64,000 nt of DNA from Balanoglossus misakiensis (GCA_040954595.2 CM082589.2:710988-774987), one strand, 5' to 3'; shown: positions 1 to 33,045, counted from the first letter of the stretch. The notes: generated by a model not told the origin, from the sequence alone. Numbers and translations are program-made.

Positions 1-2593
1 CCATCAAGTTTTGATCTACACTGCAATGTTGTCAGTCTATTAAAATGCCCACCCACAAATACCACAGTAACCAAGGCATTCCTTGAAGAGATAGACGCGC
101 TTAATAATGCAACGGATGTTCAAACAGCGATAACCAATGCTGGCCTACGTTCGATCCACTCATGTCTAATGCATGTCATGTCAGAGAAGGGTTTTAATAT
201 ACTCCTCTGACTTATTTAGGTTGCTACGTCATTTTATTTGTATTCAAGTAGCTGGCAATCAAAGACTGCAGGGTCAAGCCTTGTATATCAGCTCGATTCA
301 AGCAACATAAATTAGTCGGCGTGGCCTTTGGGACTAAAGATCGACAATTGCGGTCAAAATAATCATTTATCACAAAAGGTATACTGAGTCGGTTGTTGTA
401 TACGCACCTGTTGTGTGCTTTGTTTGATCCTACGTTTCAAGAAATACACCAACAATCATTCTAATTCGATTTGTGTCTCGTTAAGTTTCCCTCCGAGAAA
501 AATGTGAAAACTCTGCATCAAAGAAATATGATATATTTGAACGATACTCGACCTCCTAAAGAGTTGAATAGTGCAATGAAAATATTTTTCATCAATATTA
601 GTTGGATCAGTTTGCAAGTGAAAGTTGAGGCTCTTTCACACAGACAGTGGACTGACTGATTGCGATATCTACTTACAAGTTTTCGCATCAACTTTATCTT
701 GGGTCCGTTTTAGCCAGTAGACTTAGTATGCACTGCAGGTAACTTCCGAGTCCTTCACTTGAAATTTGCAATAATAATCCAGCACTTACGAACTGTCCTC
801 GTTGCCCTTGGAAGAATATTGTCAAATTAAATTTATGGAATACAAATTTTCCAGTAGTGTTTCTGCTCCAAGGTGTATGAACTTATTGTCTAATAGTTTC
901 ATCAGTTTTGCAGTTGAGCAAATAGCCAATTAACGAACCATCGGTATTCCCGACGCCTAGTTTAATGACTTCATTATGGTGTAAAGATCCTGATCATTCT
1001 ATTGAGATGCAGATTATCTATTACAAGTTCGGTGATGCGTCCCTCCAGGCCTTGTACATGACAAAAGGATCTTGTGTTCTTATTCTGTCAGCTCTGTTCA
1101 AGCGTAAGGGCTCCTTAGCAACCATTGTCATGAGATGAATTTAGTGCCACGTGAACATTAACCCCATCCAATCATATCCTCTGGCCCAACAACATTACTT
1201 TTTATGTTACAAGGCCCTTATTATCTTGTATGTTTATCACCATATAATACAAGTAGACGGCGTACTTTTTCATATACGCTCAATGCACTAGGGGCTGCTC
1301 TCCCCGCCCAGTCACCATGCGCCAGGCGCCAGGGAACTATTTACAGAAAGCGGGCTTGTCAAAGTGTTTGTAACAAACTAATTTGATAAATCAGTAAACA
1401 GAGGCATTGTAATAGCATATAACACAAGCATGCATCGATCGTCACACTTTCTGTCAATTTGTAAATTGTTCGCAAACGATGATTGCTTACCCGTACTCAG
1501 AGAGTCGAGGGATCTATTCTTTCAGTCGTATAGACGCTGGAACGAGTGAAAACGCACGTACAGAGAGACTGCTGTACGATTCATGAAGACAGTGTGTTGA
1601 CGTTTATGGGTGCAAAGTTGAATTTCATGAGAGATTCATTGCCCTACATTGCACTATTTTAAAGGTCATACTAAACAGGGCATTATCAAACCACGTGGGA
1701 TCCTTCGTATTATGCATGTCTTCGAAGAAAATGACCAATATCAGTCTATCAAACGGGCCGAAAACCAATTCAATGCATTCAGTGGAAAGTAATTAAGTTT
1801 TGCCAACGTGTCTTCTTCGTTGGCGACGTTCGTGTTAGTTTCAAAAGTAAACTGAGAGGGCGCTGGCACAGGGAACTTAGGCTTACGTTGTAACCGAGTT
1901 CATGCGCAATCTCCGTCAGCGGAAGCAGCATTTTTGGTATCCTGTTTAGAACAACATTTGTTTTAAGACGGGATTTAGGAAAACAAAGTTACCCAAGAAG
2001 CTTGGAATATGCAGCTAGGATCATCTTCATTTTCCATAGGCAGAGAACACTAAAAATAATTGATGTGCAGTCACAAAATTCAGAATCATATTTAATTTTG
2101 ATTCAGAGCTTGTCATGATACTAATATTAAAATATGAACACTTTCCAACAACAAATGGAAAAAAGGACTTAACCAAAATATTACCACCATATTTGCCAAT
2201 ATTTACCAATATTTGCGCAATCACCAAAAACTAAATTTTACACCTGTTTATACATACAGACAGCCTGGGTGGTTAAATATTGTCTGTCGCTGTGTATTTA
2301 CATGGAAACGGTAATTTGACTGAATTATTGATAAACATCGCATTGCACTCTTTGCGTCTTACCGGCAATGGATTTCAATAGATGGGAAAGGCAGGGCAGG
2401 CCGCTGCCAGGCCGACACTTCCTATTTATTTGACAAACACAGTCACGCTGTTCAATATGCATGATTTCTAGAACAGATCCTGCTTTTTCCGCCCAAAAAC
2501 CCACACGGATTTTGACTTCAAGAGGAGGTTTGTCATTTGTCATTTACCCTGTGTGCATGCGATGTGATTCTTTGTCGTCCGTTGAAAAGCAAG

Positions 2594-3466
2594 ATGATGG
2601 CTAATTTGCTGCGAACACGGGACGACGGGAAGAATAACCCCCAACGAGAACGGACAGCAGACAACGATATTCTGCTGACCAGGGATTTGTTGTCCGACCT
2701 GATCATAGCGCCGGAGCCACCAGAGATAGCCGAGGGGGAATTCACTGCCGGACGAACGCATTTAACTCGCGAGACGCACAGAGCACCGTCAAGCATCAAC
2801 GTTTCTGTCAACCCCTCTCCTGTGCCTGGATACTGGCCAATCTACAAAGAGAAAAAGAAAAAGAAACCATCCATGTTGCCAAGATTAAGGGCAAGCCAAT
2901 GTGATCTTTACCCACGGACTAAATCCAATCGCACCAGACTTGCCATGATGATGATGACCTTACAAAGACCCACAACAGTACCGACGGGAGCACACGCGCA
3001 CGCTCAGAAAATGAAAGACGCCACGAAGATTCCAAAAAGTGAAAAGAAGAAAAAGACGAAGAGGCAAGCGATCGATGGAGACAAAATGACAGCAGCTGAG
3101 AACAAGAAAGGGAAACAAAAAGTCAAGAGATCAAAAGGAGGGGATAAGTCGCGAGAAGTTCCTCTGAAGAACGTGCCCTTGGTTGCCAAGTTACCAGTTG
3201 CCGAGGGGCCAAGTCAGGAAGATAAAGACGCTTTCGTTGCTAAGTGGCTGGAATCAAGTTTTCCTGTCTCTGAGGTTTTCCAGTATAAGAGCAGAGAAGA
3301 TTCAATCCACAGAGAATCCCTGACGTCATCACTATCATCGACATCACGTGTTAACCATTATGCTAATGATGTGATGATTACGAAGAGAACACCTTCAGCC
3401 AATCATAATGAACTACCTAAAACACCACATATATGGCAAAGGCGTTTGACTAAATATGTTCTTTAA
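2594..3466 (+). CDS. Intronless Lys-rich, probably disordered protein of unknown function (~290 aa from ATG 2594)
   Basis: 873-bp open frame in AT-rich DNA, far longer than the surrounding random ORFs. It has basic clusters (KEKKKKKP, EKKKKTKR). No family recognised. Confidence 0.5.
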   Translation: MMANLLRTRDDGKNNPQRERTADNDILLTRDLLSDLIIAPEPPEIAEGEFTAGRTHLTRETHRAPSSINVSVNPSPVPGYWPIYKEKKKKKPSMLPRLRASQCDLYPRTKSNRTRLAMMMMTLQRPTTVPTGAHAHAQKMKDATKIPKSEKKKKTKRQAIDGDKMTAAENKKGKQKVKRSKGGDKSREVPLKNVPLVAKLPVAEGPSQEDKDAFVAKWLESSFPVSEVFQYKSREDSIHRESLTSSLSSTSRVNHYANDVMITKRTPSANHNELPKTPHIWQRRLTKYVL

Positions 3467-4200: not shown

Positions 4201-4247
4201 ATTGGTGAACCTTTAAAAGGCATCGCGCGATCATCGTTGTCTCAGTT
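4201..4247 (+). promoter_or_regulatory. Core promoter of the secreted Cys-rich gene (inverted CCAAT, TATA-like, Inr)
   Basis: ATTGG at 4201, TTTAAAA at 4212-4218 and TCAGTT initiator at 4242-4247 (30 bp after the TATA-like box), ~85 bp upstream of ATG 4330. Confidence 0.5.
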
Positions 4248-4329
4248 CCGTCGAGTCGTGCTGTAGACAGAAGACACACAAGGTGACTGTTCAGACGATT
4301 GAAGCAGAATTACAAACTACCTGTACATC

Positions 4330-7187
4330 ATGAAGCTCATCACAGCTTTTGTCTTCTTAGTAACCGTGTACGGATCGGCAACAATACATGGACAGACTCA
4401 GGTAAGGGATGAGTTTAATAAAAGGCTTTTAAGTTTTTTGTCTTGTGTAGAGAATGCAATATCTTGTTCTACTTCGACATAAATGTTTAAACGCCAGGCA
4501 AAATATATTCGCTTTTACACATCCTGAATATTTCAGGCATACGTCTGCATGATGAGGAACCGTGGTTGATAAAACCACATTGTAAACATACTAAGTAGTT
4601 ATAATATTATAACATATAGTCTTGTCATATGTTTCGCCAGATCACCAATGGTTACGCCTTCTGATCCAGAAACCTAATTATCTACTTTTGACGGACAGTG
4701 AATGTATATTATTGGGGCATTGTAATCAACGAATACATCCTGTGTTTTGTTAGATTAGCTGAATGATTATAGTCAGTACAATGTATTATATAGTTAATCT
4801 TTGATCTTCAGACATCTACGCAGGGCGCGATGTTCTATAAAGATAAACTTCGAGGGGTTCAATCTCGGGTCTAGCGTCCAAAGCCCGTCTGATATGGCAA
4901 ATTATATTGCCTGCGTTTTGAGTCTAGACCACTTTTTCTTCATAACAGGATGTGTGCTTGAACTTTCTTGGAAATCACGTGGAGTAATCTTTAAAGTTGT
5001 CGCTAAGATGTTGTGGCACCCAATCAGTGTATAATGACCGGTCACCCCACAGTGACCTTGTTTGGGTCATTTTATTACACATGATTGGTAGGCTATTCTC
5101 TAAAGAGACATGTGGCAGTAATTACTCTCTTTGATTTACAGGACACCCAGGCCAATGTGTACGAGGCCTTGTTGGCTCTATCAGACAGTGTTGATGGAAT
5201 ACGAGAAGACGTTTACAATTACAAGAAAGGTTGGTCCAAATTTCAGTTGTTTAACATATTCCAGACTGATCCAAGGTCCGTGAATAGAGTTCCCTATATC
5301 GGTGACATATGAATGGTGACCATATGATTCGAAAATATAGGTGTACAGTCAGATTTGCTCACAGTTTTCTCAAATGACTTGAATGTTTATATTTCTAATA
5401 TTCTCTAGAAATACTTTATCAGCTGACCAGTGAATGCGAAGAACAGATTTCACCGAGTGCACCTGGACCTGTTTGCACCACTCGTATTGGCCCTCTCTCC
5501 GGCACCAACGACGATGATTCGTCGGAGGTCACATGCTCAACTGATGAAGTCATGACCGGCTGCAGTTCGCATCTGCCGGGGACTGCGCATGGTTCGAGGG
5601 ATGGTGAAATCATACGCTTCTCTGATGATGGCCGTCCGACATGCGTTGCTTTCAATGGTAATACAGGAACAGGTGTGTATGTCTTTATTTGTCTATAATG
5701 CGTCATAGATTTGTTTGATCATGTATGCAATCAAATCACTGAGGAAAAAAGAATATTTGTGATGTATTTGTATTTTAAATTCATAATTTGGTTTTATACG
5801 ATTTCTGTAATTATTTGCTACTTTTTTAAATACACAGTTCCATTATGCATTCTATTGCAAACACTGGTTTCCATTTTAGTGCCAGGAGGCGACTTTTCTT
5901 TAAGAATATATTTTTATATACGAACATGAATTGACAATGTGACTTTGTTCGTTCTTCTAGGAGTAAGACCATACGCTCGTTGTTGCAAGTGGTCTGATAT
6001 GATTTGCTATTATCCAAACGGTCAAATATCTTCCTCTGCTGATGATGCGGTCTCAACGACTGTTTGTGACCAGTGGTTCAATGGGAACCCTGCTCTTCCA
6101 ACAGGTGAGTTTCTGACAGTGGTTTATGACCTGGGCGGATTCTAAGTCCACTTGTGGTAGGCTATATATAGTTATAGTAGATGGCGAAACTTGTAAAGGG
6201 GTCAGAAGTTGGTAAAATCAATGTGTATCTCTGAATAAGATACGCAATAAACTTTTGCTCCCAATTTATTGGTGCTGTCAAAATTAATGTATGATATTTG
6301 TTCATGACAATATCGTTTGCTTTTATTAATAGGATGTTTGGTGTACACACCGTGGCAATGTCTTGATGGAGCTCGTCCATCCTCTGACTTTATGATAGAT
6401 ATTACATCAGAACAACGTCCTTTTACCGAAAGAGCTTGTCTGGGTCAAAATGGAGGGGGCTGTGGAGGTAGGTACAGAAACAGGCACGTGTAGGTCAGAA
6501 TGGAGTGACTTGTTTAATAAGAGAGGGTGTGTGTTGACTATAGCTGTATGTCTGATGGGTGGAGGGAGACAGGGTGCAAGTATCGACTTGCAATCGTTTT
6601 GCAAAAGAATCATTTAGAACTAAAAATATTTTCTGAAATGACATAGGCCAATAGACCAATTTCTAAACTCCTTGAGACTCTGTAAGATGTGGGACACAGG
6701 ACACCACATGACCCATCAAACGCCCACCACATGACAGTTCAATCACTTAAATCAGTAAGTTTTAAAAAATACAAATGCTTTTTTCTCTCGCTTTGTGTCT
6801 CCTACCAGGAGTGACATCGTATGCTGCCTGCTGCAGCGCCCCCAACCTACAGTGTCAGGTGAAATATTCACAGGCGAGTGGAGTAGAAGCTAATGATGAA
6901 GCAACAGTGGCTTGTGATAGTGGATGGACTCTGACAGGTTGTAACGTGTTTACATATTGGAGTAATACTGATGGCGCTTATATTGAAGGTAACGGTTGAA
7001 GCTCCATTAGCTGTAAATATTTGCTGTTATCAGTATTTTAGTTTCATGTATCTTAACTGCAGTTGATATTACTAATACATGAATGAAATCTTCTCTTTTG
7101 AATTTTTTAGATGATGTCTGCCATGCTGTTACTGGTGGAGATGGTGTCTACGTCTGGGCTGTCGCAACATGTTGCATTACAGAATAA
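4330..7187 (+). CDS. Secreted Cys-rich protein with three PCSK9 C-terminal (CHRD)/resistin-like modules, 319 aa, 7 exons
   Basis: Exons 4330-4401, 5142-5229, 5409-5672, 5961-6104, 6333-6467, 6809-6988, 7111-7187. All are GT-AG with compatible phases and total 960 nt. Signal peptide MKLITAFVFLVTVYGSATIHG. Three modules of C...C...TGC...C...CC. Module 3 (CCSAPNLQCQVK...ATVACDSGWTLTGC...GAYIEDDVC...AVATCC) closely resembles PCSK9 M3 (CCHAPGLECKVK...VTVACEEGWTLTGC...GAYAVDNTC...AVAICC). AATAAA at 7213. Confidence 0.88.
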
Positions 7188-7548
7188 ACTGAAACTTGTG
7201 ATATTGAAGCAAAATAAATTTCCTGCTCATTTTAGTCTTTTTTTCGCTGTGTTTTCTATAAGTATAACAAGCAATTTTATCACAAACCAAGTTGATATCT
7301 AACAGCTTCTTCAGAGATTATATTACAAAAATACAGTATATTTTGTTTAAAAAGAATTTTATTACTTCATAAATGGAGACAGACTTTGAATGATACACAC
7401 AATATGAAAAAAAACGAAAAAACATTTCAACAGTTCAAGTGATAACATGTTGGAAATAAACTATGAATATCATATCACTAGACAACAGTACATTACAGAT
7501 CCCTCTAGCTATGAAGTAAGGTCTAAGGTCACACACACCCATGATTGG

Positions 7549-10500
7549 CTAAATTGATGAGGCCTGTACTATAGTGATGGGGTAAGTTTTGTCAACGAGT
7601 TTCTGTGGGGGATATTTGAGTTTTGTTACGATGAAAAACTGGAATCTTTCAACTCTGGATTGGATGAATCCATCCTTGCTGTATTCTGGTCCATCACTGT
7701 CCCTGAGTAGAACTAAGTATCTGTGTGAGAGAGAGAGAGAGAAAATGATAATAATCTAGTCAGAATGGAGTAACGGGAATACAGAGCTGATCCAAAGAGT
7801 GTGTGCAGTAGTCTGAAGTTGTTCTTTCATAGTCATTAAAAATTCCAGGCTTTTCCAGGAATTTTTGGATTTTTAAAAGCATCTCAAATAAATGTCATGT
7901 GTATAAATTGTACTGACAACTTACTTTTCATTCTTCATAATGTCTTTATTCATTATCAAGTCCATCAACCCTTTATGAATGTCATCCATTCTCATAGCTA
8001 CTGTGTCAAACATATCTACCTGCATCATGTCTAGCACCAGAGGTTTTCCATATCTAGTGAATGAGAAAGAAATTGAAGCAGATCAGAGTCTGATGATGAC
8101 TTGATGGCTGCTTTCCATATCTACTTACTGGAGAGGAAAGTCTGTCAAATTCTCCGGTAGATTACTGCGCCCTTTGTTGCACATGTTCCATAGCTGTGTC
8201 TATACCAGTTTGATTCTCTCTGTTCTGTCTGTCTGTCTATCTGACTGACTGACTGACTGTCTGTCTGTCTGTCTGTCTGCCATGCCTGTCAATTTCCTTC
8301 ACATTCAAGTAATTCAATTGTTCTTACCTAAGAGCACCAAGAATTGATTTCCTCATAACTTCCACCTCGACTTGTTTAACATTCAATGCATTTATGTAGT
8401 TGGTATCTCTGTATTGTAAGAATGTTGCTACGCGCCCTGATGGGTCGATGAGCAGAGGCCATCTGTAGGTGAGAAAATAAAAATTTAGTAAACCACCAAG
8501 ATCACGCAAGCTTAAATACATTAAGCATCTTAAAGGGTGGGTGTCGTCCGATATGTGGCTATCGGTATAGGTCCCATACTGCACAGTTGCTAGAAAGTTT
8601 TTAAAAAAGAATGAGTCAATATCCTACCTTCCATCAGCAGCTATTTTGTCACCAACATCTCTCATCAAAACTTCATCTAGTTCCTTGATGTTACATTTAA
8701 CACCAATGACATCGGGACTGCTTTCTATATAAGAGAAATTAATGCCTTGAAATTAGAGATAGTAACTGTAGCCAACACCAAATGCTTGGTACAAGGTACA
8801 TGTGCATGTCCTGTTATAGATGTTCTTTTAACATGTGGTTCTATGTGGAAGGGACTGGTAAAGGTGTTTAGTATAGATATGTTTCTAGATTAGAGAGGGT
8901 TCAGTTTAGGTCTAGACAGGTTTTAATGTAGTGTAGATGGACTGAAAGTCTCCAACCTCCTTCATGTTCTTGTTCACGCATCTGTACTCTGATTTGTTCC
9001 AGTTTCTGTTGGGCTTCCTCTGCATAGAGTTTTGCGATCTCCAGATCTTTCTCTGCATCATGAACCACCTGCAAAGATAGAGGATTTTATGGAAGAGAGA
9101 GAAATGGAAGCATAAATCAGTCCGGAATCTAGCTCATCATGAAGAGAGATTTCAGACTCTGTTGAAACCGAAATAGCAAATTAATATCAAAACTTGTCCT
9201 GCCACGACTACTTCTTAAGACAACAACAGAGTGTAATACCTGTAGAGTAATTTCAGCTTTAAAATTGCCACCTGCAACCACCTGGTCATGTTCTGTAATT
9301 CTTTTCTCCAATTCGTGATAAGCTTTTCTTAGTTCTTTTTGTCGAATCTCATGCTCTCTTACAGCTTCCTTTAGTTTATTTTCAAGTCTGTGGAGATTTA
9401 AAAATAGAGTGATTTGTTAAAAGCTGTCTGTACCTATCTGTAAATATGATGTGTTTACGCACAGAAACATGTGCAGTTCAGATGAATGCTTCCCTTTCAT
9501 GTCTACTACACCACAAGATAGTTTTGCCAAAATATGGAAGAGTTTTCCATTCAAATGACTAACTTCTCCATTTCCTCCTCTCTCCTCTTCCTTTCATCTT
9601 CTTTCCGCTTTTCTTTGACTTTCTCAATCTTTTCCAGAAGTGCATCTGTATTTTCAATATTCCACTCAGCAAGCACAGATATCACAGCATCTATAGTTGC
9701 AATCTAAGACGCAAAAACACATTGATAACAATTATTTCCAATACAGATAAATCATCATGTAAATGTATGTACTTGAGTTTCAAAAGCTCACATTACAGCC
9801 AGAAAGAAAGAACAGTGTTCAGCCTGTTCGCAGTCTTTTCATGGTTTAGTTTCAATTTAAAATTTACAAAGGCAAAGTCACCTACTTTGGGCAATTAACA
9901 TTTGAAACGGGCCATACATGACCAAGATTTTAATAACTTGTATGCATTATGTACTGTGTGAAATAGGGTCACCTTTACTGCAGATTTCATATAATCCATC
10001 AAACTTCGAATTCACAAAGTGTTTATACCAGACAAGGTGTTGTTTTAAATACCCGTTGATTGATGGCATATGATCCCACATACACTGTGTGTAAAGAACA
10101 TGTATTGTGGCAACTTGGCAACAACTGTTGCGATTGATGTCTTTAATCTTACTAAACAAAGGCTGGTGAAATGGATAGCGATATAATATTTGTACAAATG
10201 CATTTTGTTCTATCTGTTTCACCCGTAGTTCCCTGTTTTATTCGCAATCCTTTCACAGTGTTGTTACTTTTATCACCTCCCACTTTTCTTGAATAGTGGA
10301 GCAAAAAAGCCATTACAGGTTCTTGAGAAGTGCTAAATGTTTCCAAAAAGTGACAAAAGGTGGAGAAAATGAGCAGATGTTTTTAGCAGCCATGCTACAA
10401 GAGCCTCATCACGGCTAGCTAATGGGTCAAATAGTTAGTCATTATGATCACAGATTACTGGTGCTATATTGTTGTAATGCAACAGCGTGTGACAAAAAAT

Positions 10501-12026
10501 CCCCATACACTCAACAAGAAATGTGCTTCATAAATAACAGGGCAATTCAGTCTTTTGGATTTGTAAATATATGATTTTTATACTTTAGTGGACACTGACC
10601 GAGATTATGTATGGCAGGTGTATTGGCCAGGTAATGTCGTTTATTTCTTTACCTGTTCTGGATTTTGACCGTCATTTGCATAAAGTCTTGGATCAGCACC
10701 GTGCTGTAACAATGTCTCCACTGCCTCTAAGTGGCCACTGAACGCAGCTCTGTACAACGGTGTTCTTTCAAACTGTCCACGACTGTTTGGATCAGCTCCT
10801 TTCTCCAAGAGCATCTTGATGGTATCTGCATGTCCTCCACTGGATGCTTCTGAGAGCGGTGTGTTGTTATTAGCATCTGCACAGTCCACCATCTCAAGTT
10901 GGTGTCTGGCTCGGATTGTTCTACCCACTGAATCATTTGCTATGCCCATTTTCGTGTCCTGTTGATCAACCTAATAATATTAAAAATCATTAATGCTATT
11001 ACTTTTAGTTACAATATGTACTGCCCCAGAACCATCACCTAAGTTTATAGTAGGCATGAAGATTAACCTATGGAACGTTTACTGTTCAACTGTTTGAAGT
11101 GAAAAGTGTACAAGCACACCTCTTTCAACACCTGAGTGATTTCATCATTGTCTCCATCAAATGCTGCTTCTAACATTCTCTTTCTTCTTTTGATAGCTTC
11201 TTTCTTTCTCCTTCTTTCTTCTTCTTCCTTCTCTCGTTCTCTGGCTGCTTGTTCTTGTTCTCGCTTGACCATTGCCAGAAATGCCTTGTCAAAAAAAAAC
11301 TCCCTTGTAATATTGATTTCTTATGATCCATGCATCATTTATGTAATTGAAATGAACTAATTGTAACATACAATGCATAAATCATAACTGTTATGCAATA
11401 ATGATATTTCAAGCAGAGCTGCAACTTTTCCATTCATTCCATACCTCTTTTTCCAGTCTTTCCATTTCTTCCTCATAGTTTTCCTTCTGCTTTTTCATCT
11501 TCCTCAGCTGAGCCTTTGCCAATAATCTGCGAATCCATTTCTGGATGACTACTGCAGCTAAATCTTGTTTGGTTGGTTCTTTTTTCACTGATTTGGCTGG
11601 TTGATTTGTCTTGCCTTTAGCAGGAGCTGCTTTGCCTTTTGATGGAGTTACGCCAGGTTTTTTCGCTGCACCTATAAAATATTTCCACTTCATGTATTCG
11701 TTTTGAAATGATGATGTGGGGCTATGGTAGGGGGCGTGGTGGGCACACACTCATTGACAACATGACGATCGTAAGTTTCTCTCCTTTTTATTTAAATAGT
11801 TGATCGTCTCGTGGATACCCAAATACCCCCGTAGTGCTGCAGCAGTTAAATCTACCTTGTAGATCAGCGTTGATTAAACGAACGGGAAAGTTAAAGCTTG
11901 TTGCTATCCAGGGTGCTGCTAGGGACGCTTACCTTTCACAGCTGCAGCGGGGGTTTTCTTTGCTGGCGCGGTTTTCGCCGCAGGTTTAGCCGCCGTCTTG
12001 GCAGCAACTGGTCTTTTCGGGGGCAT
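7549..12026 (-). CDS. IQANK1: IQ motif and ankyrin repeat domain-containing protein (IQANK1-like), 578 aa, 11 exons
   Basis: Exons 12026-11933, 11671-11445, 11284-11120, 10970-10653, 9703-9564, 9387-9240, 9068-8957, 8724-8628, 8462-8328, 8053-7925, 7720-7549 (1737 nt, in frame). MPPK-type K/A/P-rich N-tail, IQ motif AAVVIQKWIRRLLAK, ankyrin repeats (NNTPLSEASSGGHADTIKMLLEKGADPN; RTPLYRAAFSGHLEAVETLLQHGADP), coiled coil, and C-terminal RWPLLIDPSG...GALRYGKPLVLDM domain. Confidence 0.9.
8224..8279. repeat. Compound (TCTG)n/(ACTG)n microsatellite in IQANK1 intron
   Basis: Directly visible tetranucleotide runs. Confidence 0.85.
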
Positions 12027-12117
12027 CTTGATCTCCTGTCAACCCAGATTAACAGTGTCACTGTCGGTTTTGCTCGAAATCGACAGAACATGAAATTGGA
12101 CAGTGGAGCAATGTTGT

Positions 12118-12171: not shown

Positions 12172-14376
12172 ACACAACAAGATGTAGAGGTCCGCTGGTG
12201 TTTATCTTGATGTTTGTCGTATACGACTTTTACCTATGTCCGTTCAGTACATTAAATTCATTTGACATGTTTTTAAAGACATTTTGCGTATCAAATCACT
12301 TCTTGTAGCACTCACGGGCATTGTAACTGTGGATTGTGCACGGGCATACACATTTTGCGGGCGTTTCTGGGACCGCTTTATTTTCTGACCCTTTTTTCGA
12401 TGTTTTTTCTCTCGATAAAAATTACCAAAAGCTATGTATGTTAACTCCAATATATAAGGTGTTAGGCAACTATATCGAAAATGAATTTTCTATTATACTT
12501 GTGTGCAGAAATCGGTCATTTGCATCGATGTTTGCTTTTACACTGACACAAATGGTGGCCTAAATGTAAATGCCTATACGCCACGACTCTACATCTCTTA
12601 TCTGATGATTTATGATAGATGGATGGTTTTGCAGACAAACCGACGCTGTCATGAGTTTATCTTTGTACACGTACCATGCACTTAATTGATTGCCTGAAGG
12701 TAAATTACTAGTACATATTACGCCTATCAGAAATTAAAATGGCTTATTTGCACCAACCCTGAAATGAGTCTTGATCGTTTCTCGCAATTTGACAACAAGA
12801 CCAGAAAGATCATGATGTGCGTCACATACTTGTAAATATTGAGACAATGCTTTTGAAACTAACTAACTATCTAACTAGCTGTTAACCAGGCCTAACTAGC
12901 TGTCTGTCTCTCTGTCTACATCTGCCTGCCAGTACGTAGTGTCTGTACGTCTTTCTGTCAATATCAGTCACACCTAACTTGTAATTTTTATCTTTGAGTG
13001 CACATCAATTCATCCATTGCAAATCGCACAAATCATTTTAAACAGCGTGACAGTTATTATTCTGCAAAATGACATGTCTGACAAAATGATGAATTTAACC
13101 CAACTTTGAAAGTCAGGTGAGATGTAACTTGTAACGTAATGGGGTTATATTTAAGGAGTTTTAGCGCATGTGCGCAGGATAAATTGATATTTATCACGTA
13201 GGATTTGTCAATTTCACATCCCATACGACAGGTTCCCTTAACCAGTGTCGTGTCCCTTGCGTGGTTTGTTTATGAATATGTATAACGACCTTTGACGTCA
13301 GTATGAGTAGATGCACTCATCCGACAATGGAACCTGGTATGCATATTTTACATTTCATATTTTAAATTTATGAACACATACGTGAATAAAATTGCAGGTT
13401 AAAGGTTAGTGACAAGACAAATAAAAATGTAGAAGGGATATGTATTTTTCGTTGCAGTAAGTAACATTAATAATTTGTCATGGGAATATTTCCAGTGGTA
13501 CTTCAAATCGTGTTGACTGTACGCCAAAACGGCCTTGTCTGATAAATGATATCATTAATTCTACAGGTAGGCCCCTATATATAGCATGTCTATAGCCATC
13601 GCGGATGAAACGCTGTAATAAACACCTTGGTTGTCAGTTCGCTTTTGGTGCCGTTGCGTCTGACTGCTCCCCAAAGAAACCAGGCCATAAATATAGTAGC
13701 GCGTATTTTTTTTATTTAATTAGTTATGCTAGAAAGGCTAAATTATAACTGCCACCAGCCGAGGAAAATCTCAAAGATTGGTCTCAGCGTTTTCATCAAT
13801 TTTCATGCAGATGTTGTAAGTGAACCGGAGACCGAGAGATATTCTATTCCGAACGCGCTCGACGCCCTCTGGGCTAGATGTTATCCCTCGTGTGAACCAC
13901 CTGCTCCGGTTCGTACACATCCAACGTATCTGTACCGAAAACCGGAAAGGGTAATGCAGAATGAATGTACTGCATAGCCATCACATTTGTGAACTATTAA
14001 TGATGCCTGTCAACCACGGAACACAGTGTATACACAGACGAATGACTAAAATATAACAGTCACAAGCCCAGCATATGAAGCAGGGCACAGTCTAATTTTA
14101 GTATGCTTAGAATTCCTCGTGAAAAACAAACATAAAAGTCTTTGAAATATTAAAGGTTCTTTGCTTTAATAATTGATACTCTATGTAAATAATATAATTG
14201 ATATACTTGAATTATGCAAATAATTCCGATGACGATTACTTTCCGAATGCACGAGGCGACAGCCGAGCGGGCGTTGATTTTTAATGACTTTTATTATCAC
14301 TCTCGATTTATTCATTTATATTCAAATTTTGTAAGCAAAACAGGCAGGTCAGTCGCGTCTGTGTTTTGGGGCTAAC

Positions 14377-17300
14377 ATGATGGAGGCGGCGAACGCGAAA
14401 GATCCGTACCCACGTTCGCTGGCTTCGCCTCATATCGACCCGTGTACCATCAAACGGAGTCGCGGCAGAAGCAATCGCGTTATCATCAATGTTGGAGGGG
14501 TTCGACATGAAGTGATGTGGAAAACACTGGCCCGTCTGCCCCGCACGCGACTGGGACGCCTCCGAGAATGCACCACACATGAAATGATAATGGCCGTCTG
14601 TGATGACTACAGTATTTTGGAAAAGGAAAAATTGGAATACTTCTTCGACAGACACCCCGAATCTTTCCGGGCCATTTTGAATTTCTACCGCATGGGTAAA
14701 CTGCACATGATCGAGGAAATGTGCCCGGTATCTTTTGGCGATGAACTTGCCTACTGGGGCATCGATGATTTGTATCTGGAAAATTGTTGTCAACACAAAT
14801 ACCATCAAGTGAAGGAACAAGTGAAAGAAGAACAAAACCGGATCCACCTCACCCTCAAAGAACAAGAAGAGGAATATTTTGGGGTCGGATGTTTTGCCGA
14901 CAAGCGCAAGAAAGTTTGGGCGCTCATGGAAAAGCCCGAGTCATCAACACCCGCCAGGGTAAGTGGGTTACAAAAAGTGCATCTGTTGACACGTCCCGTC
15001 TGGTTGGCACTGTTTCACACGTTTCATCACTTCCCATTGTCCCCCATATCTGTAAGTAAACGACAATCAATCCACAGCAAACCTGTTAATATCACCAGCA
15101 AAATTTATAGTTAGAAAGGACAATAATTTCATGCAGTGTTAATTGCTAAACAAACAAAACAAAACAAGGTAGAGATGCCATATGTAACCCAGAGGCTCAC
15201 ACAGCACTATCTCTGTACAACAACCCGCTATTATATTTTTGGTTTAAAACATCCACTGTCGGCATATCGGCTTCGTTGTGTTGCAGTGTTTTTGCTGGTC
15301 GACCAAGACACACGCTTAAAGTCAGCGTCGACAATAACGACAGTACGTCGAATATTGACGCCGACAGCAAAACGGCGGGTAGGGTTTCCAATGACCTAGG
15401 AATTAATTACTGAATTTTAAATATAATGTGATCAGTAGCAGAATTACATGCTTCTGTTAATAACACACTGAAGGATAAAACGTTTGGAAATGTCTGAATA
15501 AAACAATTAATTGAAATATTATGCTTTCCACATTTTCAGTGGTAATTATACTGCACGTAGGCCCATAGTCAAAAGGTTTGCGATGAATATTCACAAGCCG
15601 TTATCTCTATTGCATAGCAGATGGGAGGACTAATATTATTCCATCCACGTATGGTTTTAACGACACTATTTATAAATACATCCGCTATGTGCGCTGTGTG
15701 TCAGTGTGTATGTATGTATATGTGGATTTTGGCATGGTGTTAAGTTGGAGTATGCATTTGGTTTTATGTATGATATTGTTTTATGGTAGGCAAGGCAGGT
15801 GATCAGACCTACTATTTTTTCAAGTAATAAAACTGGCAAATTATTCGGTTAGATAAAATAGAATCTCTACCATAGCTTAGAAAAGTTTTATCCCACAAAC
15901 TCATCTATCATTCATATCCGCGTGCATTCGTTCCTTTCTTGGAATTCCGATTTTTCCTTTAAAATTCGAGTAGGTAGTTTACGATTGGCAAATTTACTTT
16001 TCCACAATAAACGTAGATTTGCCATCAATTTAATAACCCGTAGCAGCTGTCATTCATATCAAGCGTATGAATGGAATGAACTGCTAATGATTGAATGACA
16101 AACGTGATAAGTTATATCGTCCTGAAATTAACGTTTTTTTTTCCATTAGGCCGATGTGTAGATTCTACAAAAGAAATCCTTTACCATGTAGGTTTCAAAG
16201 CATGTTACAATCACACCTTGTTCGTTTCCAGCACTCTGATTGGTGGCTTCATTGCCAGCGTCATGCACGCAGAGGGCGCATTATCGGTCAACAGTTTTCG
16301 AACTGTTACCCGACAATTGTGTAATGTTGCAGGAAAACAAAAAACGGTCAACAAGACACTGCAACAGACAGTTTCAGACTCATTATCAATGCAATTGGGT
16401 AATGAAAATGAAATTTTCATGACCCTTAATGGTTATTAATAGTCCTAATAGTTCGCAACAAAAATCATTAAAATCGATCGACGATGAAGTAATGACGACA
16501 TAGGCAAGAGGTTCTGTGAGGAGACAATATATTTTCAAACGTGTGTTGGTTGTTTGGGGACATCTGTTGCCGTATTTAGGACAGCATATGTACATGAGCC
16601 TTGATAGCTGTAGATAACAATATTTATCATTTTATATGGACAATAAAACGCCATTAGTGAGACAGTTGAAACAGAATCCAGAAAGGCGATCATTTATGTC
16701 AACTATTCTGCAATGGTTAGATGCGCTAGATGTGGCCCATAACTGTACCTGCAATATTCACTACGAAGTGCATTGGTTTTTAGGCTCGTTCGAGTATCAA
16801 AGTCTAAAATTATCAGAGTTATATTTACACCAACAGCGCTAGCGATTACTTACTGGTATTGTAATATGACGGTCATTTATTATGTTGCAAATGGAATGAG
16901 AATTGAGAATGAATAATGAGCTTTAAAAAGACCAGTGTCACAGTGTTTAACAGTGTTTTTGCATAATCCTGGCTGTGTTTGGTATTAATGAGCTTTTATG
17001 TATTTTTGAAATTGTTACAAGGTGAACTTGTGGTTGGTAGAGCTGTACTCTTGCACTGTCATAATATGCACAGCATCTAAAGGTGATATTAAAATTATAT
17101 AATTTCTTGTATGTACCAGCCATTTCTACGGACTTATTCAAACATGAGTTGTAACAACTGATAATTATATTAATCGCAGTAAGCATATTACATGAATAAG
17201 TTTGTATCATAAAACAACAGAAAACAAAATTGGACCTTTTCCTTCTGATCAACTGCCTGGACAAATTACAAGTCACATTGACGTGTCCTACTGCCATGGT

Positions 17301-20204
17301 CACGATGTTCTCTTAGGGCTGGATAATTAACATGAGAAGTTTATTTATAGCTTGTGCTGAGTGCTTTATTCAGATGGCATAAGATAGGTCTTACGTCTCT
17401 AGCATATCTAATTGTATATCTATTAACAACATCTTTCTAATTATCTCAATATCTCCACCACATCGAGCCTGACGATTTGCAAACTACAGCCCCTATAGCT
17501 GTCACTTTTGGAACTAGTACAAGTAACTTTATGACAATGTGACTGTTATGTTTCCAGACTGCTGGGCCAAGTCTAAACGTATTACTGCGATAAGGCATCA
17601 TGCCACGCTGACGATCTCCACACTTTCACTATACCAATCAGCAATCCTTCACATTTTAGCTTATATCAGAGACCAATTTCATTTAAAAATTCAATCAATC
17701 AAGCGACTCTTGTATGAAAAACTAATTCCCGTAAACTACACACCCTTTACACCCCGTGAACTAAAACACGACAGGCCATGAAATGTAAAGCCATGTTAAT
17801 TTGCAAATAACTTCGTCAATTTATGTAATTACACGGATTTTTTCCGTGGCAATATCATTTAAATTACAAAATTGGTAGTCGTCGTGTCCTTGGGGGAGAA
17901 ACTTAAAGGCTGCTTATAGATGCTTGACATGTCACTACACGTTGGGCTCAGCTGGTCGCTTCATCTAAAGAATTTATAAAATATTGCGCTGAAGTAGATT
18001 TGCCACAGAAAGGTGGCATTTGCACGTTCTCCGTGGAGATTACAAGACAAGGAATTTGCATATTTTTCTGCAAATGCTACAGATGGGTGGGAATAACCGT
18101 CCGAATACCTATACAGACGAGAACGTCCATTAGAATGCTAATTCTAGAAGGATTAAGTTGAAATTGCCTGTAATAGAGGGACTGTGGCCTGGGTTAGAAA
18201 AGAATAGGATAAAATTGTCGAGAGAACATAAGCTTGCAGCAATTATAGCATGTGACAACACGTTATCCGGAAATCAATTAACATGTATTAAGGGCCATTA
18301 TCCCATCGGTAAAAATACAGTGACTGTAGTGTTAATTAAAGCTTCAGGCAGTGTTGGCGGGCGGGGCATAAAAGGGCAAATGTGCAAGAAGACAATTGTG
18401 TTCCATATGGTACCCCTATTTCACCAAATATAAATTTAGACTATATTTACTATTTTCTTTGACATTTTAAATACTCGTACAACCTTTTGATCATGTAATT
18501 AATGCAAAGTGAAACTTTATCAGATTAAAAAGGAGCGTCTTTTCTATTTTCCAGATCGTTGCGATTTTGTCCATCCTCTTCATCGTATTGTCCACCATTG
18601 CTCTGTCACTGAACACGATTCCCAGCCTTCAAGACAAAGACAAATATGGCCAGCCAGGAGACAATCACGAACTAGCAATGGTTGAAATGGTTTGTATTGC
18701 CTGGTTTACAATGGAATATGTTCTCAGATTATTGTCAGCACCGTATAAGTGGCAATTCTTCAAAGCCCCGTTGAACGTCATAGATCTCATCGCCATATTG
18801 CCGTTTTACATCACGTTGTTTCTCACTGAGTCAAACGACAGCTATCTGCAGGTTAACAACGTCCGTCGCGTGGTGCAAATCTTCAGGATCATGCGAATTC
18901 TGCGAATCTTGAAACTAGCCAGGCACTCCACCGGACTCAAAGCGCTTGGACACACCCTGACGACGAGTTACACAGAACTGGGTCTTCTCACTCTCTTCAT
19001 AGGGATAGTCGTCATGTTGTTTTCAAGTTTAGCCTATTTCGCCGAGAAGGATGACCCCAACACGCTCTTTGAGAGCATCCCCATCGCTTGTTGGTGGGCG
19101 GCAATCACTATGACAACGGTTGGATATGGGGATCTGTATCCAAAGACGCTACTAGGGAAACTTGTTGGTGCCGTGTGTTGCATCTGCGGCGTGCTGGTCA
19201 TCGCTTTACCCATTCCCATTATTGTCAATAATTTTTCGGATTACTATCAGGAGCAGAAGAGACACGAGAAAACCATGAAACGAAGGGAAGCTCTGGAAAA
19301 GGCCAAAAAAGACGGGACCTTGGTTAGTGTCAATGTAAGATACGCGTGGATGGATATGGTGGACATTTTAGTGGATAACAAGAAAGGGTCGCCGCGACTT
19401 GAAGGTCGAAGTGTTTCCAATCTGTCGTTGGAGTACCCGGTCGAAAATGATCAACAACGCAATAATAAGACGCACAATTTACAAGTAGGTACTGGAACTA
19501 TCTATCATTCTTCGGGGCGTCTGTCTCCTCGTGGATCGGGACGAAGACGCTTACAGAGTTCTTCCAGTATGGCTTCGGACACCTGTCGGGAACCGGTGGG
19601 GAGAACGCATGGCGTCATAGGAGGGATGGGTGTCATGGCAACTGGTCCGGGGATCTGCATTGGCGGGAAAGACTGCGAAGGAGAAGAGGGAAAGAGCGAC
19701 GGCGAGACTTCGCCCTGCCTCGGAATAAATCAAGATTTCCGAAACAAAAACGAGAGAGACAGAATGGAATTGCCCAACATCCGGGTCACCACAGCTTCAT
19801 CAAAGGGTTCGGGAAGCCGTCTGGACACCGATGATGACGACAAGCGAAGTTTTTCTTCGGTGGATTCTGACGACAGAAAGACGCCACCGACGGCCGTGAA
19901 GAGGCCATTCTTAAAAGGGAGATTTAAAAAGCCAAGTAATAGCCTTGCAGCCATAAGACGTTTTGCTAATCTAAGAGGGAGGGGTCGTGCAACCGATCGA
20001 TCTGCCACGCAATCAAGTGACAGTGCATCCGAATCTTACAGTCCAAACAACGCAAGAAATGCTGACTTAAACAACAAAATGGGCGCTGCCGACGTTGATG
20101 TCGAGAAAGGTCAGTTGGACCGCACACCAAGGAACGAGATCTCGCCCGATGATCCTCCGGAAGCGAGAAACTCCTTGGAAGAAATTGAACTTAATAACAT
20201 GTAA
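14377..20204 (+). CDS. Shab: Voltage-gated potassium channel Kv2 (Shab/KCNB), 743 aa, 2 coding exons
   Basis: Exon 14377-14958 encodes the T1 domain ([13 protein letters not shown]..., [16 protein letters not shown]). Exon 18555-20204 encodes S1-S6, with S4 [21 protein letters not shown], pore TMTTVGYGD, Kv2-type PIP hinge and proximal C-terminus [25 protein letters not shown]. The phase-0 intron lies just before S1, as in vertebrate KCNB genes. Confidence 0.96.
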
Positions 20205-23284: not shown

Positions 23285-23423
23285 GGCGTCGTTCTAAACA
23301 AGTCTTTCACGTGTACGTGCGTTCTATCAATCCCACATTACGTAATCAGCTTTGTGGATGCAGTTCAGTTGACCTGTAAGACTCGTTATCCTTGGGTCGT
23401 TGAATTCCGCCCCTGCAGCCGAA

Positions 23424-25191
<1,768 letters not shown>

Positions 25192-32200: not shown

Positions 32201-33045
32201 GTCATAGCACTGGATAAGTTTTGGGCCTGAGTTGATAACAATAAGTAAAGTTTTCTGTATGCCAATCTCGAATGCGCGCGAAACAGCTTTTGAGAGCAGA
32301 GCCAAGTGAAAAATATAGACATCGACAATTTCGTTTATACGGAATGCAACTTGAAGTATGATTTCAACTTCCGACTAGTCGTCAAGGCGACGGAAGAAAA
32401 CATACTTACTCTGTAGATTCGGGGGTTCCACTCCTAGACAGAAATCCCAAAAATCTGGGCAACAGTCAACGGCAGTGTGATTACAGAACAAATCACAGTA
32501 GCACAGAACACCCTTGTACGGCACAGTACACCGATCGTCTCGTCCCTCACAACACTGCTGTGGTTTGCGACTTCTGCAATACTGCTCTGTTGTCATGGAG
32601 ACACATAGGACGTAAAGCAATTTCTGTTTGTTCTATGAGTTATTTATATTAATTTGGTCACAGAAGCGTTTTGAAATTATCAGTAGTAAGGCTCCAATTT
32701 CAACTTATATGTAGGGACAACATGGCATTCTGTCATAATTTCTGGTACGTACCATTAATTATGCTTAATTAGTGAAGTCGAATGAAGGAAAATGTACTTA
32801 CGCTCTTGATGCGGGGGCTCCACCCCTAGACAGACACCCCAGAAATCAGGACAGCAGTCAACGGCAGTGTGATTACAGAACAAATCACAGTAGCACAGAA
32901 CATCCTTGTACGGCACAGTACAGCGATCGTCTCTCCCCTGACAACATTTCTCTGGTTGACGATGACTGCAATACTGCGCTGTTGCTATAGAGACACATAG
33001 AACACAAAGCAACGCAGCAACCGCTACGAGATCTGGCCTCTTCAT
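26247..33045 (-). CDS. TINAGL1: Tubulointerstitial nephritis antigen-like protein (SMB domain + papain/cathepsin-B-fold C1A pseudoprotease), 473 aa without the duplicated exon
   Basis: Exons 33045-32802, 28877-28811, 28641-28537, 28069-27834, 27680-27530, 27367-27205, 27054-27009, 26790-26621, 26486-26247 (1422 nt, in frame). Signal peptide, SMB (CCQGRDDRC...CYCDLFCN...DCCPDFW), [36 protein letters not shown] (catalytic Cys replaced by Ser), [15 protein letters not shown]. Confidence 0.92.
26858..26950. repeat. (CATT)n microsatellite in TINAGL1 intron
   Basis: About 23 near-perfect CATT units with one CGTT variant. Confidence 0.95.
29617..30198. mobile_element. MITE (~580 bp) with perfect 39-bp terminal inverted repeats in TINAGL1 intron
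   Basis: CAATGCGAATCTCGCGAACGCGCAAGGTTTCATGGGAAA at 29621-29659 and its exact reverse complement at 30156-30194. The match extends by CACG/CACC. The right flank is TA and the left flank is TG. No transposase ORF. Confidence 0.85.
32410..32620 (-). CDS. Tandem duplicate of the TINAGL1 somatomedin-B exon (alternative/cassette exon or pseudo-exon)
   Basis: 41/45 aa identical to the first copy over the SMB core, all Cys kept, intact GTAAGT donor at 32409. It lacks the original ATG and the first half of the signal peptide. Confidence 0.7.

What the first reader, a model, noticed from the sequence alone, without database searches (positions are those of the whole stretch)
4330..7187. Stand-alone secreted PCSK9 C-terminal-domain protein with no protease: a resistin/PCSK9 'missing link' architecture
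Seen: a clean 7-exon, 319-aa ORF with a signal peptide, a ~40-aa amphipathic helix (NVYEALLALSDSVDGIREDVYNYKKEILYQLTSEC) and exactly three 6-Cys modules ending in CC. Known: the PCSK9 Cys/His-rich C-terminal domain has three such modules and resembles the resistin homotrimer head, and resistin has an N-terminal coiled-coil helix. Here there is no I9 prodomain and no S8 subtilisin domain, and the introns are too short and ORF-free to hide them. Inference: a single-chain triple-module, resistin-like secreted ligand or lectin-like protein in an invertebrate. It is acidic rather than His-rich, so it probably lacks PCSK9's pH-switch behaviour. The ORF track shows it only as fragments.
Basis: partly seen in the sequence, partly recalled or inferred. 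Interest (0 to 1): 0.8.

Follow-up and report, generated by a model that had tools for sequence, protein, structure and literature searches.

The report
Acorn-worm PCSK9 head without protease
This seven-exon gene, likely from an acorn worm, encodes a predicted secreted protein made only of the cysteine-rich tail domain of the human cholesterol regulator PCSK9 on a predicted coiled stalk; it belongs to an auto-annotated acorn-worm gene family and likely works as a multivalent surface- or sugar-recognition protein, not as a link between PCSK9 and resistin.

Summary
The gene model holds: seven GT-AG exons give a 319-aa ORF with a signal peptide, a heptad helix and three PCSK9 C-terminal (CHRD) modules. 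No subtilisin or I9 sequence is in the window. One correction: module 2 has 8 Cys and there are 21 in all. No RNA run was listed. The gene belongs to a protease-less family with 14 named hemichordate proteins, which RefSeq labels 'PCSK9-like'. A model of a 64%-identical relative matches the CHRD (Z 28.7) but RELM-beta only weakly (Z 3.5). 'Missing link' is not supported: protease-fused CHRDs, including a Ptychodera one, form their own clade, and the domain is mobile (11 of 145 relatives on S8, 15 on GH10 glycosidases, 17 on Pro/Thr stalks). A marine-microbe collagen protein with one module is closer to resistin's layout. Best reading (0.5): a secreted, helix-oligomerised recognition protein binding glycans or surfaces through a conserved Asp/Asn motif; no ligand was tested. 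This scan earlier noted a protease-less CHRD in a foraminifer (e1-9819854).

The parts
4212..4247 (+). TATA-like box (4212-4218) and initiator-like element (4242-4247), 30 nt apart; possible promoter, which would make exon 1 a first exon
   Evidence: pattern scan; in-frame stop at 4300 upstream of the ATG; consensus patterns recalled, function inferred
4330..4401 (+). Exon 1, aa 1-24: ATG and predicted signal peptide; phase-0 intron follows
5142..5229 (+). Exon 2, aa 25-53: first part of the heptad helix (predicted coiled-coil stalk)
   Evidence: helix 32-67 in the model of relative P0001; interface in the three-copy model
5409..5672 (+). Exon 3, aa 54-141: end of helix, unpaired C63, module 1 strands 1-5 with motif residues S84, D88-D90, D118-G119, N136-G137
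   Evidence: (PCSK9_C1 E 6e-10)
5961..6104 (+). Exon 4, aa 142-189: last strand of module 1 (C149-C150) and start of module 2 (S165, D169-D170)
6333..6467 (+). Exon 5, aa 190-234: core of module 2 with the extra cysteines C199 and C233, and W197, D201-G202, N229-G230
6809..6988 (+). Exon 6, aa 235-294: end of module 2 (C242-C243) and most of module 3 (S258, D264, W285, D289-G290)
   Evidence: (PCSK9_C3 E 2.5e-12)
7111..7187 (+). Exon 7, aa 295-319 and TAA stop: end of module 3 (C315-C316); T302 stands where most modules have Asn
7183..7218 (+). Two AATAAA polyadenylation-like signals (7183, 7213)
   Evidence: use not tested

Best explanation
The gene encodes a predicted secreted protein in which a PCSK9-type three-module beta-prism head sits on a predicted coiled-coil stalk, and it likely works as a soluble, multivalent recognition protein that binds glycans or other repeating surface features, in the manner of a collectin. 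Shown: exon structure, domain identity, absence of a protease in the window, family membership. Predicted: the stalk joins chains (three in the model), so several heads are displayed together; the odd C63 could link chains by a disulfide. Inferred: the motif S-x-x-x-D-D ... D-G ... N-G, with a nearby Trp or His, forms one binding site per module at the pole away from the stalk, possibly with Ca2+; modules 1 and 2 carry the full motif and module 3 a partial one. Inferred role: trapping, agglutinating or tagging microbes or particles in mucus or body fluid.
For: Fold: model of relative P0001 (pLDDT 86) matches PCSK9 452-682 at Z 28.7, rmsd 1.9 over 213 residues. Stalk: heptad score reached by 0 of 500 shuffles. 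Three copies of P0001 30-320 scored 0.39 against a best control of 0.00, with contacts only in residues 30-68 in register (runs agree in at least 76% of contacts, pLDDT at least 83; the mark was reached by 21 of 30 solved pairs and 0 of 23 single chains in microbes, and by 17 of 29 eukaryotic pairs, 7 of 16 animal, 1 of 7 without an older solved relative, and 0 of 30 single chains). Company the domain keeps: of 145 non-seed representatives scanned, 15 carry it at the C-terminus of a GH10 glycosidase, often with CBM_4_9 (named ones from abalone, chiton, limpet and Lingula); others combine it with C-type lectin, F5/8 or WSC domains (P0013, P0092, P0104, P0111, P0149), and 17 with Pro/Thr stalk repeats. 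14 of the 15 GH10 keep the acid/base motif. One Logan protein has it at the N-terminus of a MACPF protein (P0069), and the nearest other fold, the apicomplexan APC-beta prism (Z 6.5), is a membrane-binding domain (PMC6294395, passages). Motif: all four marks in 32 of 45 stand-alone modules and 121 of 246 other modules, against 2 of 17 invertebrate S8-fused modules; by strand order in the model the three motif loops fall at one pole (inference). One member ends in a short six-Cys tail that looks beta-defensin-like by eye (P0006; no Pfam hit).
Against: No ligand, metal, expression or tissue data; no solved member of this fold binds sugar in anything I read. The only characterised CHRD binds proteins: CAP1, HLA-C, annexin A2 (PMC9816786, passages). 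GH10-fused modules keep the full motif in only 13 of 42 cases, which weakens the link between motif and sugar. The motif count is partly circular because the profile was built from the stand-alone modules, and 87 of 440 aligned modules were dropped for gaps. The oligomer job used P0001, not the window protein, tested only three copies, lies outside the tool's two-copy calibration, and a coiled coil may pass from memory. 7 of 15 members lack the stalk. No lectin fold scored Z 5 or more apart from PCSK9 and APC-beta.
Confidence: 0.5

Rival explanations
1. It is a resistin-like secreted signalling ligand (cytokine or hormone) that binds a specific protein receptor, with the stalk setting avidity.
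For: Signal peptide, predicted three-stranded stalk and the same module fold as resistin (RELM-beta layout in PMC13647132, passages). The PCSK9 CHRD binds proteins (PMC9816786, passages).
Against: No Pfam Resistin hit in the window or 12 relatives; RELM-beta only Z 3.5, rmsd 6.0. Fusion to glycosidases and lectin domains does not suggest a hormone. Resistin genes were found only in lobe-finned vertebrates (PMC4467842, abstract and passages).
Confidence: 0.18
2. The head binds lipids or membranes and the protein is a direct antimicrobial or membrane-tagging effector, as reported for RELM-beta and the APC-beta domain.
For: APC-beta is the next fold hit (Z 6.5) and binds lipids (PMC6294395, passages); RELM-beta binds acidic lipids and permeabilises bacteria (PMC13647132, passages); a MACPF fusion and a defensin-like tail occur among relatives; W197 and W285 lie in motif loops.
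Against: The head is strongly acidic (28 D+E against 11 K+R), a poor match for anionic membranes unless Ca2+ bridges; APC-beta identity is only 5-12%.
Confidence: 0.14
3. It is a structural or adhesive component of mucus or extracellular matrix that cross-links polymers through several heads and an inter-chain disulfide, with no immune role.
For: Disulfide-rich, acidic, odd Cys63; protist relatives show the head on Pro/Thr stalks or collagen; acorn worms secrete much mucus (my own knowledge).
Against: No repetitive or low-complexity segment in this protein. This overlaps the best explanation at the binding step and differs only in role.
Confidence: 0.13
4. It is a truncated copy of the animal's PCSK9-like protease gene (a decoy or remnant), or an evolutionary intermediate between resistin and PCSK9.
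For: The CHRD is the only close solved fold; 36.8% identity to the CHRD of the P. flava S8 protein P0022; all animal domains group together against the protist and unnamed rows (100/98), so a very old split from a protease-fused ancestor is not excluded.
Against: S8-fused CHRDs form a separate clade that already holds a P. flava member (99/96); AU test p 0.006 against window subclade plus vertebrate PCSK9; intact family in three named hemichordate species; single-module, resistin-like layout is found elsewhere (P0126).
Confidence: 0.05

Closest known systems
PCSK9 C-terminal Cys/His-rich domain (CHRD, V domain; Pfam PF18459, PF18464, PF18463; PDB 7anq, 2qtw)
   Same: Three tandem six-Cys beta modules; profile E 1e-30; model of relative Z 28.7, rmsd 1.9 over 213 residues, 29% identity.
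   Different: No I9 prodomain or S8 domain; N-terminal heptad helix instead; His-poor and acidic; extra Cys pair in module 2; Asp/Asn motif kept; separate clade from protease-fused CHRDs.
[quoted passage not shown] XP_070557088.1 Ptychodera flava, XP_077995499.1 Glandiceps talaboti)
   Same: Same protease-less layout and length; 63.6% identity to two P. flava paralogues; window groups with them at 100/99.
   Different: The window's own protein was not returned by the searches; these records carry an automatic name only and I found no paper on them.
Resistin / RELM family (Pfam PF06954; PDB 1rh7, 1rgx, 1rfx)
   Same: Secreted; N-terminal helix forming a three-stranded coiled coil (solved there, predicted here); related module fold.
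   Different: Resistin has one ten-Cys head module per chain and three chains make one head; here one chain makes the whole head, with 6-8 Cys per module. No profile hit; Z 3.5 only.
Apicomplexan perforin APC-beta domain (PDB 5ouo, 6d7a, 7pln)
   Same: [quoted passage not shown]
   Different: 5-12% identity, rmsd 4.5-5.1; part of a MACPF protein; no MACPF here.
Collectins and ficolins (functional analogy, recalled)
   Same: Stalk plus clustered recognition heads, secreted.
   Different: No collagen, C-type lectin or fibrinogen domain; the analogy is to layout only.

Membership tests
PCSK9 proprotein convertase | Inhibitor I9 prodomain and S8 subtilisin domain in the same chain | tested here: not met
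   tblastn and HMM of S8/I9 parts of six relatives give no hit in the window; CHRD control hits; relatives of the same length lack them too
PCSK9 proprotein convertase | CHRD groups with protease-fused CHRDs | tested here: not met
   S8-fused clade 99/96 excludes the window; AU p 0.006
PCSK9 proprotein convertase | His-rich C-terminal domain | tested here: not met
   3 His in the 243-aa head against 7-10 in three vertebrate sequences
PCSK9 CHRD domain family | Pfam PCSK9_C1 and C3 above curated cut-off | tested here: met
   39.6 bits against 31.3, and 47.2 against 26.7
PCSK9 CHRD domain family | Three tandem modules, each with six core Cys ending in CC | tested here: met
   18 core Cys present, plus 3 extra
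PCSK9 CHRD domain family | Double-layered beta-prism fold | tested here: met
   On the model of relative P0001 (75% identical in the head): Z 28.7, rmsd 1.9 over 213; the window's own spliced product was not folded
Resistin / RELM | One head module per chain with ten Cys | tested here: not met
   Three modules of 6, 8 and 6 Cys; definition from PMC13647132 passages
Resistin / RELM | Pfam Resistin (PF06954) match | tested here: not met
   No hit at E<=1 for 9 window frames or 12 relatives; distant family members hit weakly, E 0.02-0.4, 4 of 15
Resistin / RELM | N-terminal three-stranded coiled coil | tested here: inconclusive
   Heptads significant; three-copy model of P0001 passes, 0.39 against 0.00, but two or four copies were not tried
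Resistin / RELM | Structural match of the head | tested here: inconclusive
   1rh7 Z 3.5, rmsd 6.0, 80 aligned, whole three-module model
Collectin / ficolin | Collagen stalk plus C-type lectin or fibrinogen head | tested here: not met
   No such Pfam hit or G-X-Y repeat
Lectin (functional class) | Specific, non-catalytic carbohydrate binding | not testable with these tools
   Only indirect: domain partners and motif
Apicomplexan perforin-like proteins | MACPF domain with APC-beta | tested here: not met
   No MACPF in the 319-aa product; fold likeness only, Z 6.5

The most novel reading that the evidence does not exclude
The PCSK9 C-terminal prism is an ancient, mobile, probably Ca2+-dependent glycan- or surface-binding domain that also gave rise to the resistin head, and this gene defines a hemichordate family of collectin-like proteins showing up to nine sites on a three-chain stalk. 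Vertebrate PCSK9 would have lost the sugar site and reused the prism for protein partners, so these small soluble proteins would reveal the domain's ancestral ligand.
Probability: 0.3. Interest if true: 0.75.

Novelty: new variant of a known kind. Interest (0 to 1): 0.5.

Why it matters
The CHRD is described in the papers I read as a PCSK9-specific domain with resistin and APC-beta as its only fold relatives, and its partners are still debated. A family of small, soluble, protease-free versions, and fusions to glycosidases and lectin domains, show that it is a free-standing module and give simple proteins in which to find its ligand. If it binds glycans, it is a new lectin fold class and a candidate innate-recognition family in a deuterostome close to chordates. 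It also shows that the RefSeq label 'PCSK9-like' misleads for these genes. The gene itself is one more member of an already annotated family and its function is untested, which limits the score.

Tried and rejected
Own-genome search: no genome held, so copy number and synteny were not tested; only one copy lies in the window, with 4.3 kb visible upstream. RNA: no RNA holder listed, which is no evidence either way. Upstream splicing to a protease: rejected within the window; the + strand ORF at 2579-3466 is an intronless Lys-rich frame with no Pfam hit at E<=0.01. Resistin by sequence: not listed against PDB at E<=10 with either family profile, nor among the 60 of 87 rows shown for P0126. ESM Atlas: nothing for the whole relative; for its head, one PCSK9_C cluster at 0.91 and two unnamed bacterial clusters under 0.9, leads only. 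Bacterial origin of the CxC-type members (P0052 has a lipobox-like N-terminus by eye): not confirmed, no relative in genome contigs. More collagen-plus-one-module proteins: only P0126 itself among 62 candidates. A shared intron: I recall a phase-1 intron in human PCSK9 at the Gly before the third Cys of module 2, which would match window intron 4 (codon 190), but the paper search found nothing, so it is unverified and not used. The grouping of the stand-alone family with GH10-fused domains is weak (85/69) and I draw no order of events from it. Trees left rows out: one search used 77 domains (quick tree only); one search used 41, after dropping 9 named near-duplicates or long branches and most unnamed rows. 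VIA-align on the P0126 model could not be run; only Foldseek was obtained. Literature: ten searches, including PCSK9 with hemichordate, the Pfam accessions, 'kexin type 9-like', and PCSK9 with glycoside hydrolase and mollusc, found no paper on this family; subscription journals are mostly outside the library and no supplements were read.

Full report
Observation. Reading the window and assembling exons by coordinate gave seven exons, 4330-4401, 5142-5229, 5409-5672, 5961-6104, 6333-6467, 6809-6988 and 7111-7187, all with GT-AG boundaries, 960 nt, 319 aa and a TAA stop (a first try with the exon 3 donor 4 nt early was out of frame). Coding GC is 0.48 against 0.29-0.40 in introns. An in-frame stop lies at 4300, a TATA-like and an initiator-like element at 4212 and 4242, and AATAAA at 7183 and 7213 (consensus patterns recalled). 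The product has a hydrophobic N-terminus, a helix whose heptad score 0 of 500 shuffles reach, pI 4.2, 4 His and no N-glycosylation sequon. It has 21 Cys, not 18: C63, then 6, 8 and 6 per module. The extra module-2 pair C199/C233 occurs together in 5 of 16 stand-alone proteins (window, P0001, P0003, P0004, P0005) and neither occurs in the other 11, which suggests a tenth disulfide (inference). Pfam PCSK9_C1 and C3 pass their cut-offs on exon frames. S8 and I9 parts of six protease-fused relatives find nothing in the window by tblastn or HMM, while the CHRD of one of them finds the gene. No RNA run was listed, so splicing rests on signals and on full-length homology.

Family. The exon-3 peptide found 2 proteins among 33 candidates, both hemichordate. 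P0001 then found 12 among 1070: four P. flava, five S. kowalevskii, one G. talaboti, one unnamed Logan protein and one distant ENA protein. Look-ups added P. flava P0016/P0159 (one 90% cluster), G. talaboti P0017 and S. kowalevskii P0019, 14 named proteins in all, 222-321 aa, each labelled 'PCSK9-like'. The six P. flava proteins share one contig length, and P0004 and P0005 share another, which points to local duplication. The window protein is 63.6% identical to P0001 and to P0003 and groups with them at 100/99, and with P0004 and P0005 at 99/97. The organism is therefore likely a hemichordate (inference; unreviewed notes on the same genome say the same). The helix is optional: 7 of 15 members tested have too short a linker, 4 have a clear heptad signal (0-4 of 500 shuffles) and 4 a weak or no signal (22-273 of 500).

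Fold. The spliced product could not be sent for folding, so P0001 was used (75% identical in the head). AlphaFold2 gave pLDDT 86, a helix at 32-67 and three beta modules. Foldseek's top 30 rows are PCSK9, then the apicomplexan perforin APC-beta domains. VIA-align gives PCSK9 452-682 Z 28.7, rmsd 1.9 over 213; APC-beta Z 6.5, rmsd 4.6 over 197; RELM-beta Z 3.5, rmsd 6.0 over 80; only 5 of 48161 chains reached Z 5. PMC6294395 (abstract and passages) already groups APC-beta and the PCSK9 V domain as a double-layered beta-prism subgroup and shows that APC-beta binds membranes. The PCSK9-resistin likeness is stated in PMC9113161 (passages) and in the title of PDB 2qtw; I did not read the original paper. 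Three copies of P0001 30-320 scored 0.39 against a best control of 0.00, with confident contacts only along residues 30-68 in register (at least 76% agreement, pLDDT at least 83; calibration 21 of 30 pairs and 0 of 23 single chains in microbes; 17 of 29 eukaryotic pairs, 7 of 16 animal, 1 of 7 without a solved relative, 0 of 30 single chains; three copies is outside the calibration). This supports a coiled-coil stalk but does not fix the copy number. That beta-branched residues at both core positions favour trimers is recalled, not tested.

The domain is mobile. A profile search of 1.84 billion representatives found 330 proteins at E<=0.001 and listed 150. All 145 that were not already in hand were scanned with Pfam: 11 have Peptidase_S8, 15 have GH10 (often CBM_4_9, then GH10, then the triple module), 17 have Pro/Thr repeats, and others have C-type lectin, F5/8, kringle, CUB, WSC, sushi, PAN, somatomedin B, MACPF or collagen; many are fragments or have no other domain. 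Named sources (20 of the 145 were looked up or so): S8 fusions in Branchiostoma and P. flava; GH10 fusions in Haliotis, Liolophura, Patella and Lingula; a multidomain lectin-like protein in Glandiceps; a sushi and membrane-span protein in the crinoid Anneissia; a foraminifer (Bolivina).

The missing-link claim. In a careful tree of 41 domains, the S8-fused CHRDs of vertebrates, Branchiostoma and P. flava form one clade (99/96) that excludes the stand-alone family (the quick 77-row tree gave 98). Forcing the window's five-member subclade together with vertebrate PCSK9 is rejected (p-AU 0.006; group named after the tree was seen). Whether the family lies nearer the GH10-fused domains is unresolved (85/69). 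So the gene is a paralogous lineage that coexists with a true protease-fused gene in hemichordates. Resistin genes were reported only from mammals, reptiles, amphibians and coelacanth (PMC4467842, abstract and passages). Resistin has one ten-Cys module per chain on a three-stranded coiled coil (PMC13647132, passages); here a chain holds the whole prism, so a trimer would show three prisms. Pfam Resistin hits neither the window frames nor 12 relatives, but it hits 4 of 15 distant members weakly. One of them, P0126 from a marine microbial eukaryote transcriptome, has helix, collagen and a single module. Its modelled module (pLDDT 90-97 over residues 211-279) matches PCSK9 at E 2.7e-4, RELM-beta at 1.1e-3 (30% identity, 72 columns) and resistin at 2.9e-3. 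That supports one module family that includes resistin, and makes P0126, not this gene, the resistin-like layout.

Mechanism. Beyond the cysteines, modules keep S-x-x-x-D-D after strand 1, D-G at the start of strand 4 and N-G at the end of strand 5. All four marks occur in 32 of 45 stand-alone modules, 121 of 246 other modules, 13 of 42 GH10-fused, 2 of 17 invertebrate S8-fused and 0 of 3 vertebrate modules (353 of 440 aligned modules counted; profile built from the stand-alone set). In the window protein modules 1 and 2 have the full motif and module 3 lacks the Asn. By strand order in the model the three loops lie at one pole, away from the stalk (inferred, coordinates not available). An Asp/Asn/aromatic cluster repeated three times on a secreted, non-catalytic, expanded family whose domain also ends glycosidases is best read as a multivalent binding face for glycans or surfaces, perhaps through Ca2+ (0.5). 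Against this: no ligand data, weaker motif retention in the GH10 fusions, and the fact that the one studied CHRD binds proteins (PMC9816786, passages). Rivals: receptor ligand (0.18), membrane-binding effector (0.14), mucus or matrix cross-linker (0.13), truncated PCSK9 or true intermediate (0.05).

Novelty. The domain is known and the family is in RefSeq under an automatic name. Ten paper searches found no description of the stand-alone family or of the GH10 fusions; the library lacks most subscription papers and I read no supplements. Verdict: a real gene, a new variant of a known kind, interest 0.5.

Noticed in passing
P0126 (MMETSP transcript; not in the window): 279-aa protein with hydrophobic N-terminus, long helix, collagen repeats and one C-terminal PCSK9-type module; the module matches RELM-beta and resistin nearly as well as PCSK9 by Foldseek. 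A C1q- or resistin-like one-module-per-chain layout in a marine microbial eukaryote transcriptome.
   Followed up: partly
P0023-P0027, P0037 and others (molluscs, Lingula): CBM_4_9 + GH10 glycosidases ending in the PCSK9-type triple module, 15 of 145 representatives; the module sits where a carbohydrate-binding module is usual.
   Followed up: partly
P0014 / P0158 (Glandiceps talaboti): Coiled-coil protein in which three kringle domains are inserted inside module 1 of the triple module.
   Followed up: no
P0006 (Logan): Family member with a C-terminal six-Cys tail that looks beta-defensin-like by eye; no Pfam hit.
   Followed up: no
P0069 (Logan): Triple module at the N-terminus of a MACPF-domain protein, echoing the beta-prism plus MACPF pairing of apicomplexan perforin-like proteins.
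   Followed up: no
P0052, P0080, P0128, P0070, P0076 (unnamed): A separate class of triple modules with a C-x-C motif, some with somatomedin B; one has a lipobox-like N-terminus, so they may be bacterial, but no genome match was found.
   Followed up: partly
window 32375-32632 and 32755-33057 (- strand): Two tandem somatomedin-B-like exons, 202 of 240 nt identical, upstream of papain-family exons at 26.2-28.1 kb (a TINAG-like gene by my recall of that layout); possible duplicated or alternative first exons.
   Followed up: partly
window 2579-3466 (+): Intronless 295-codon Lys-rich ORF directly upstream of the gene; no Pfam hit at E<=0.01.
   Followed up: partly
window about 7600-12040 (- strand): Multi-exon gene converging on the finding, with ankyrin repeats, an IQ-like helix and an AAA_9-like exon; a similar Lys/Ala-rich N-terminal frame occurs at 23373-23627 (+).
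   Followed up: no
window 14335-20204 (+): Two-exon voltage-gated potassium channel gene (BTB_2 and Ion_trans; Kv2/Shab-like by recall).
   Followed up: no
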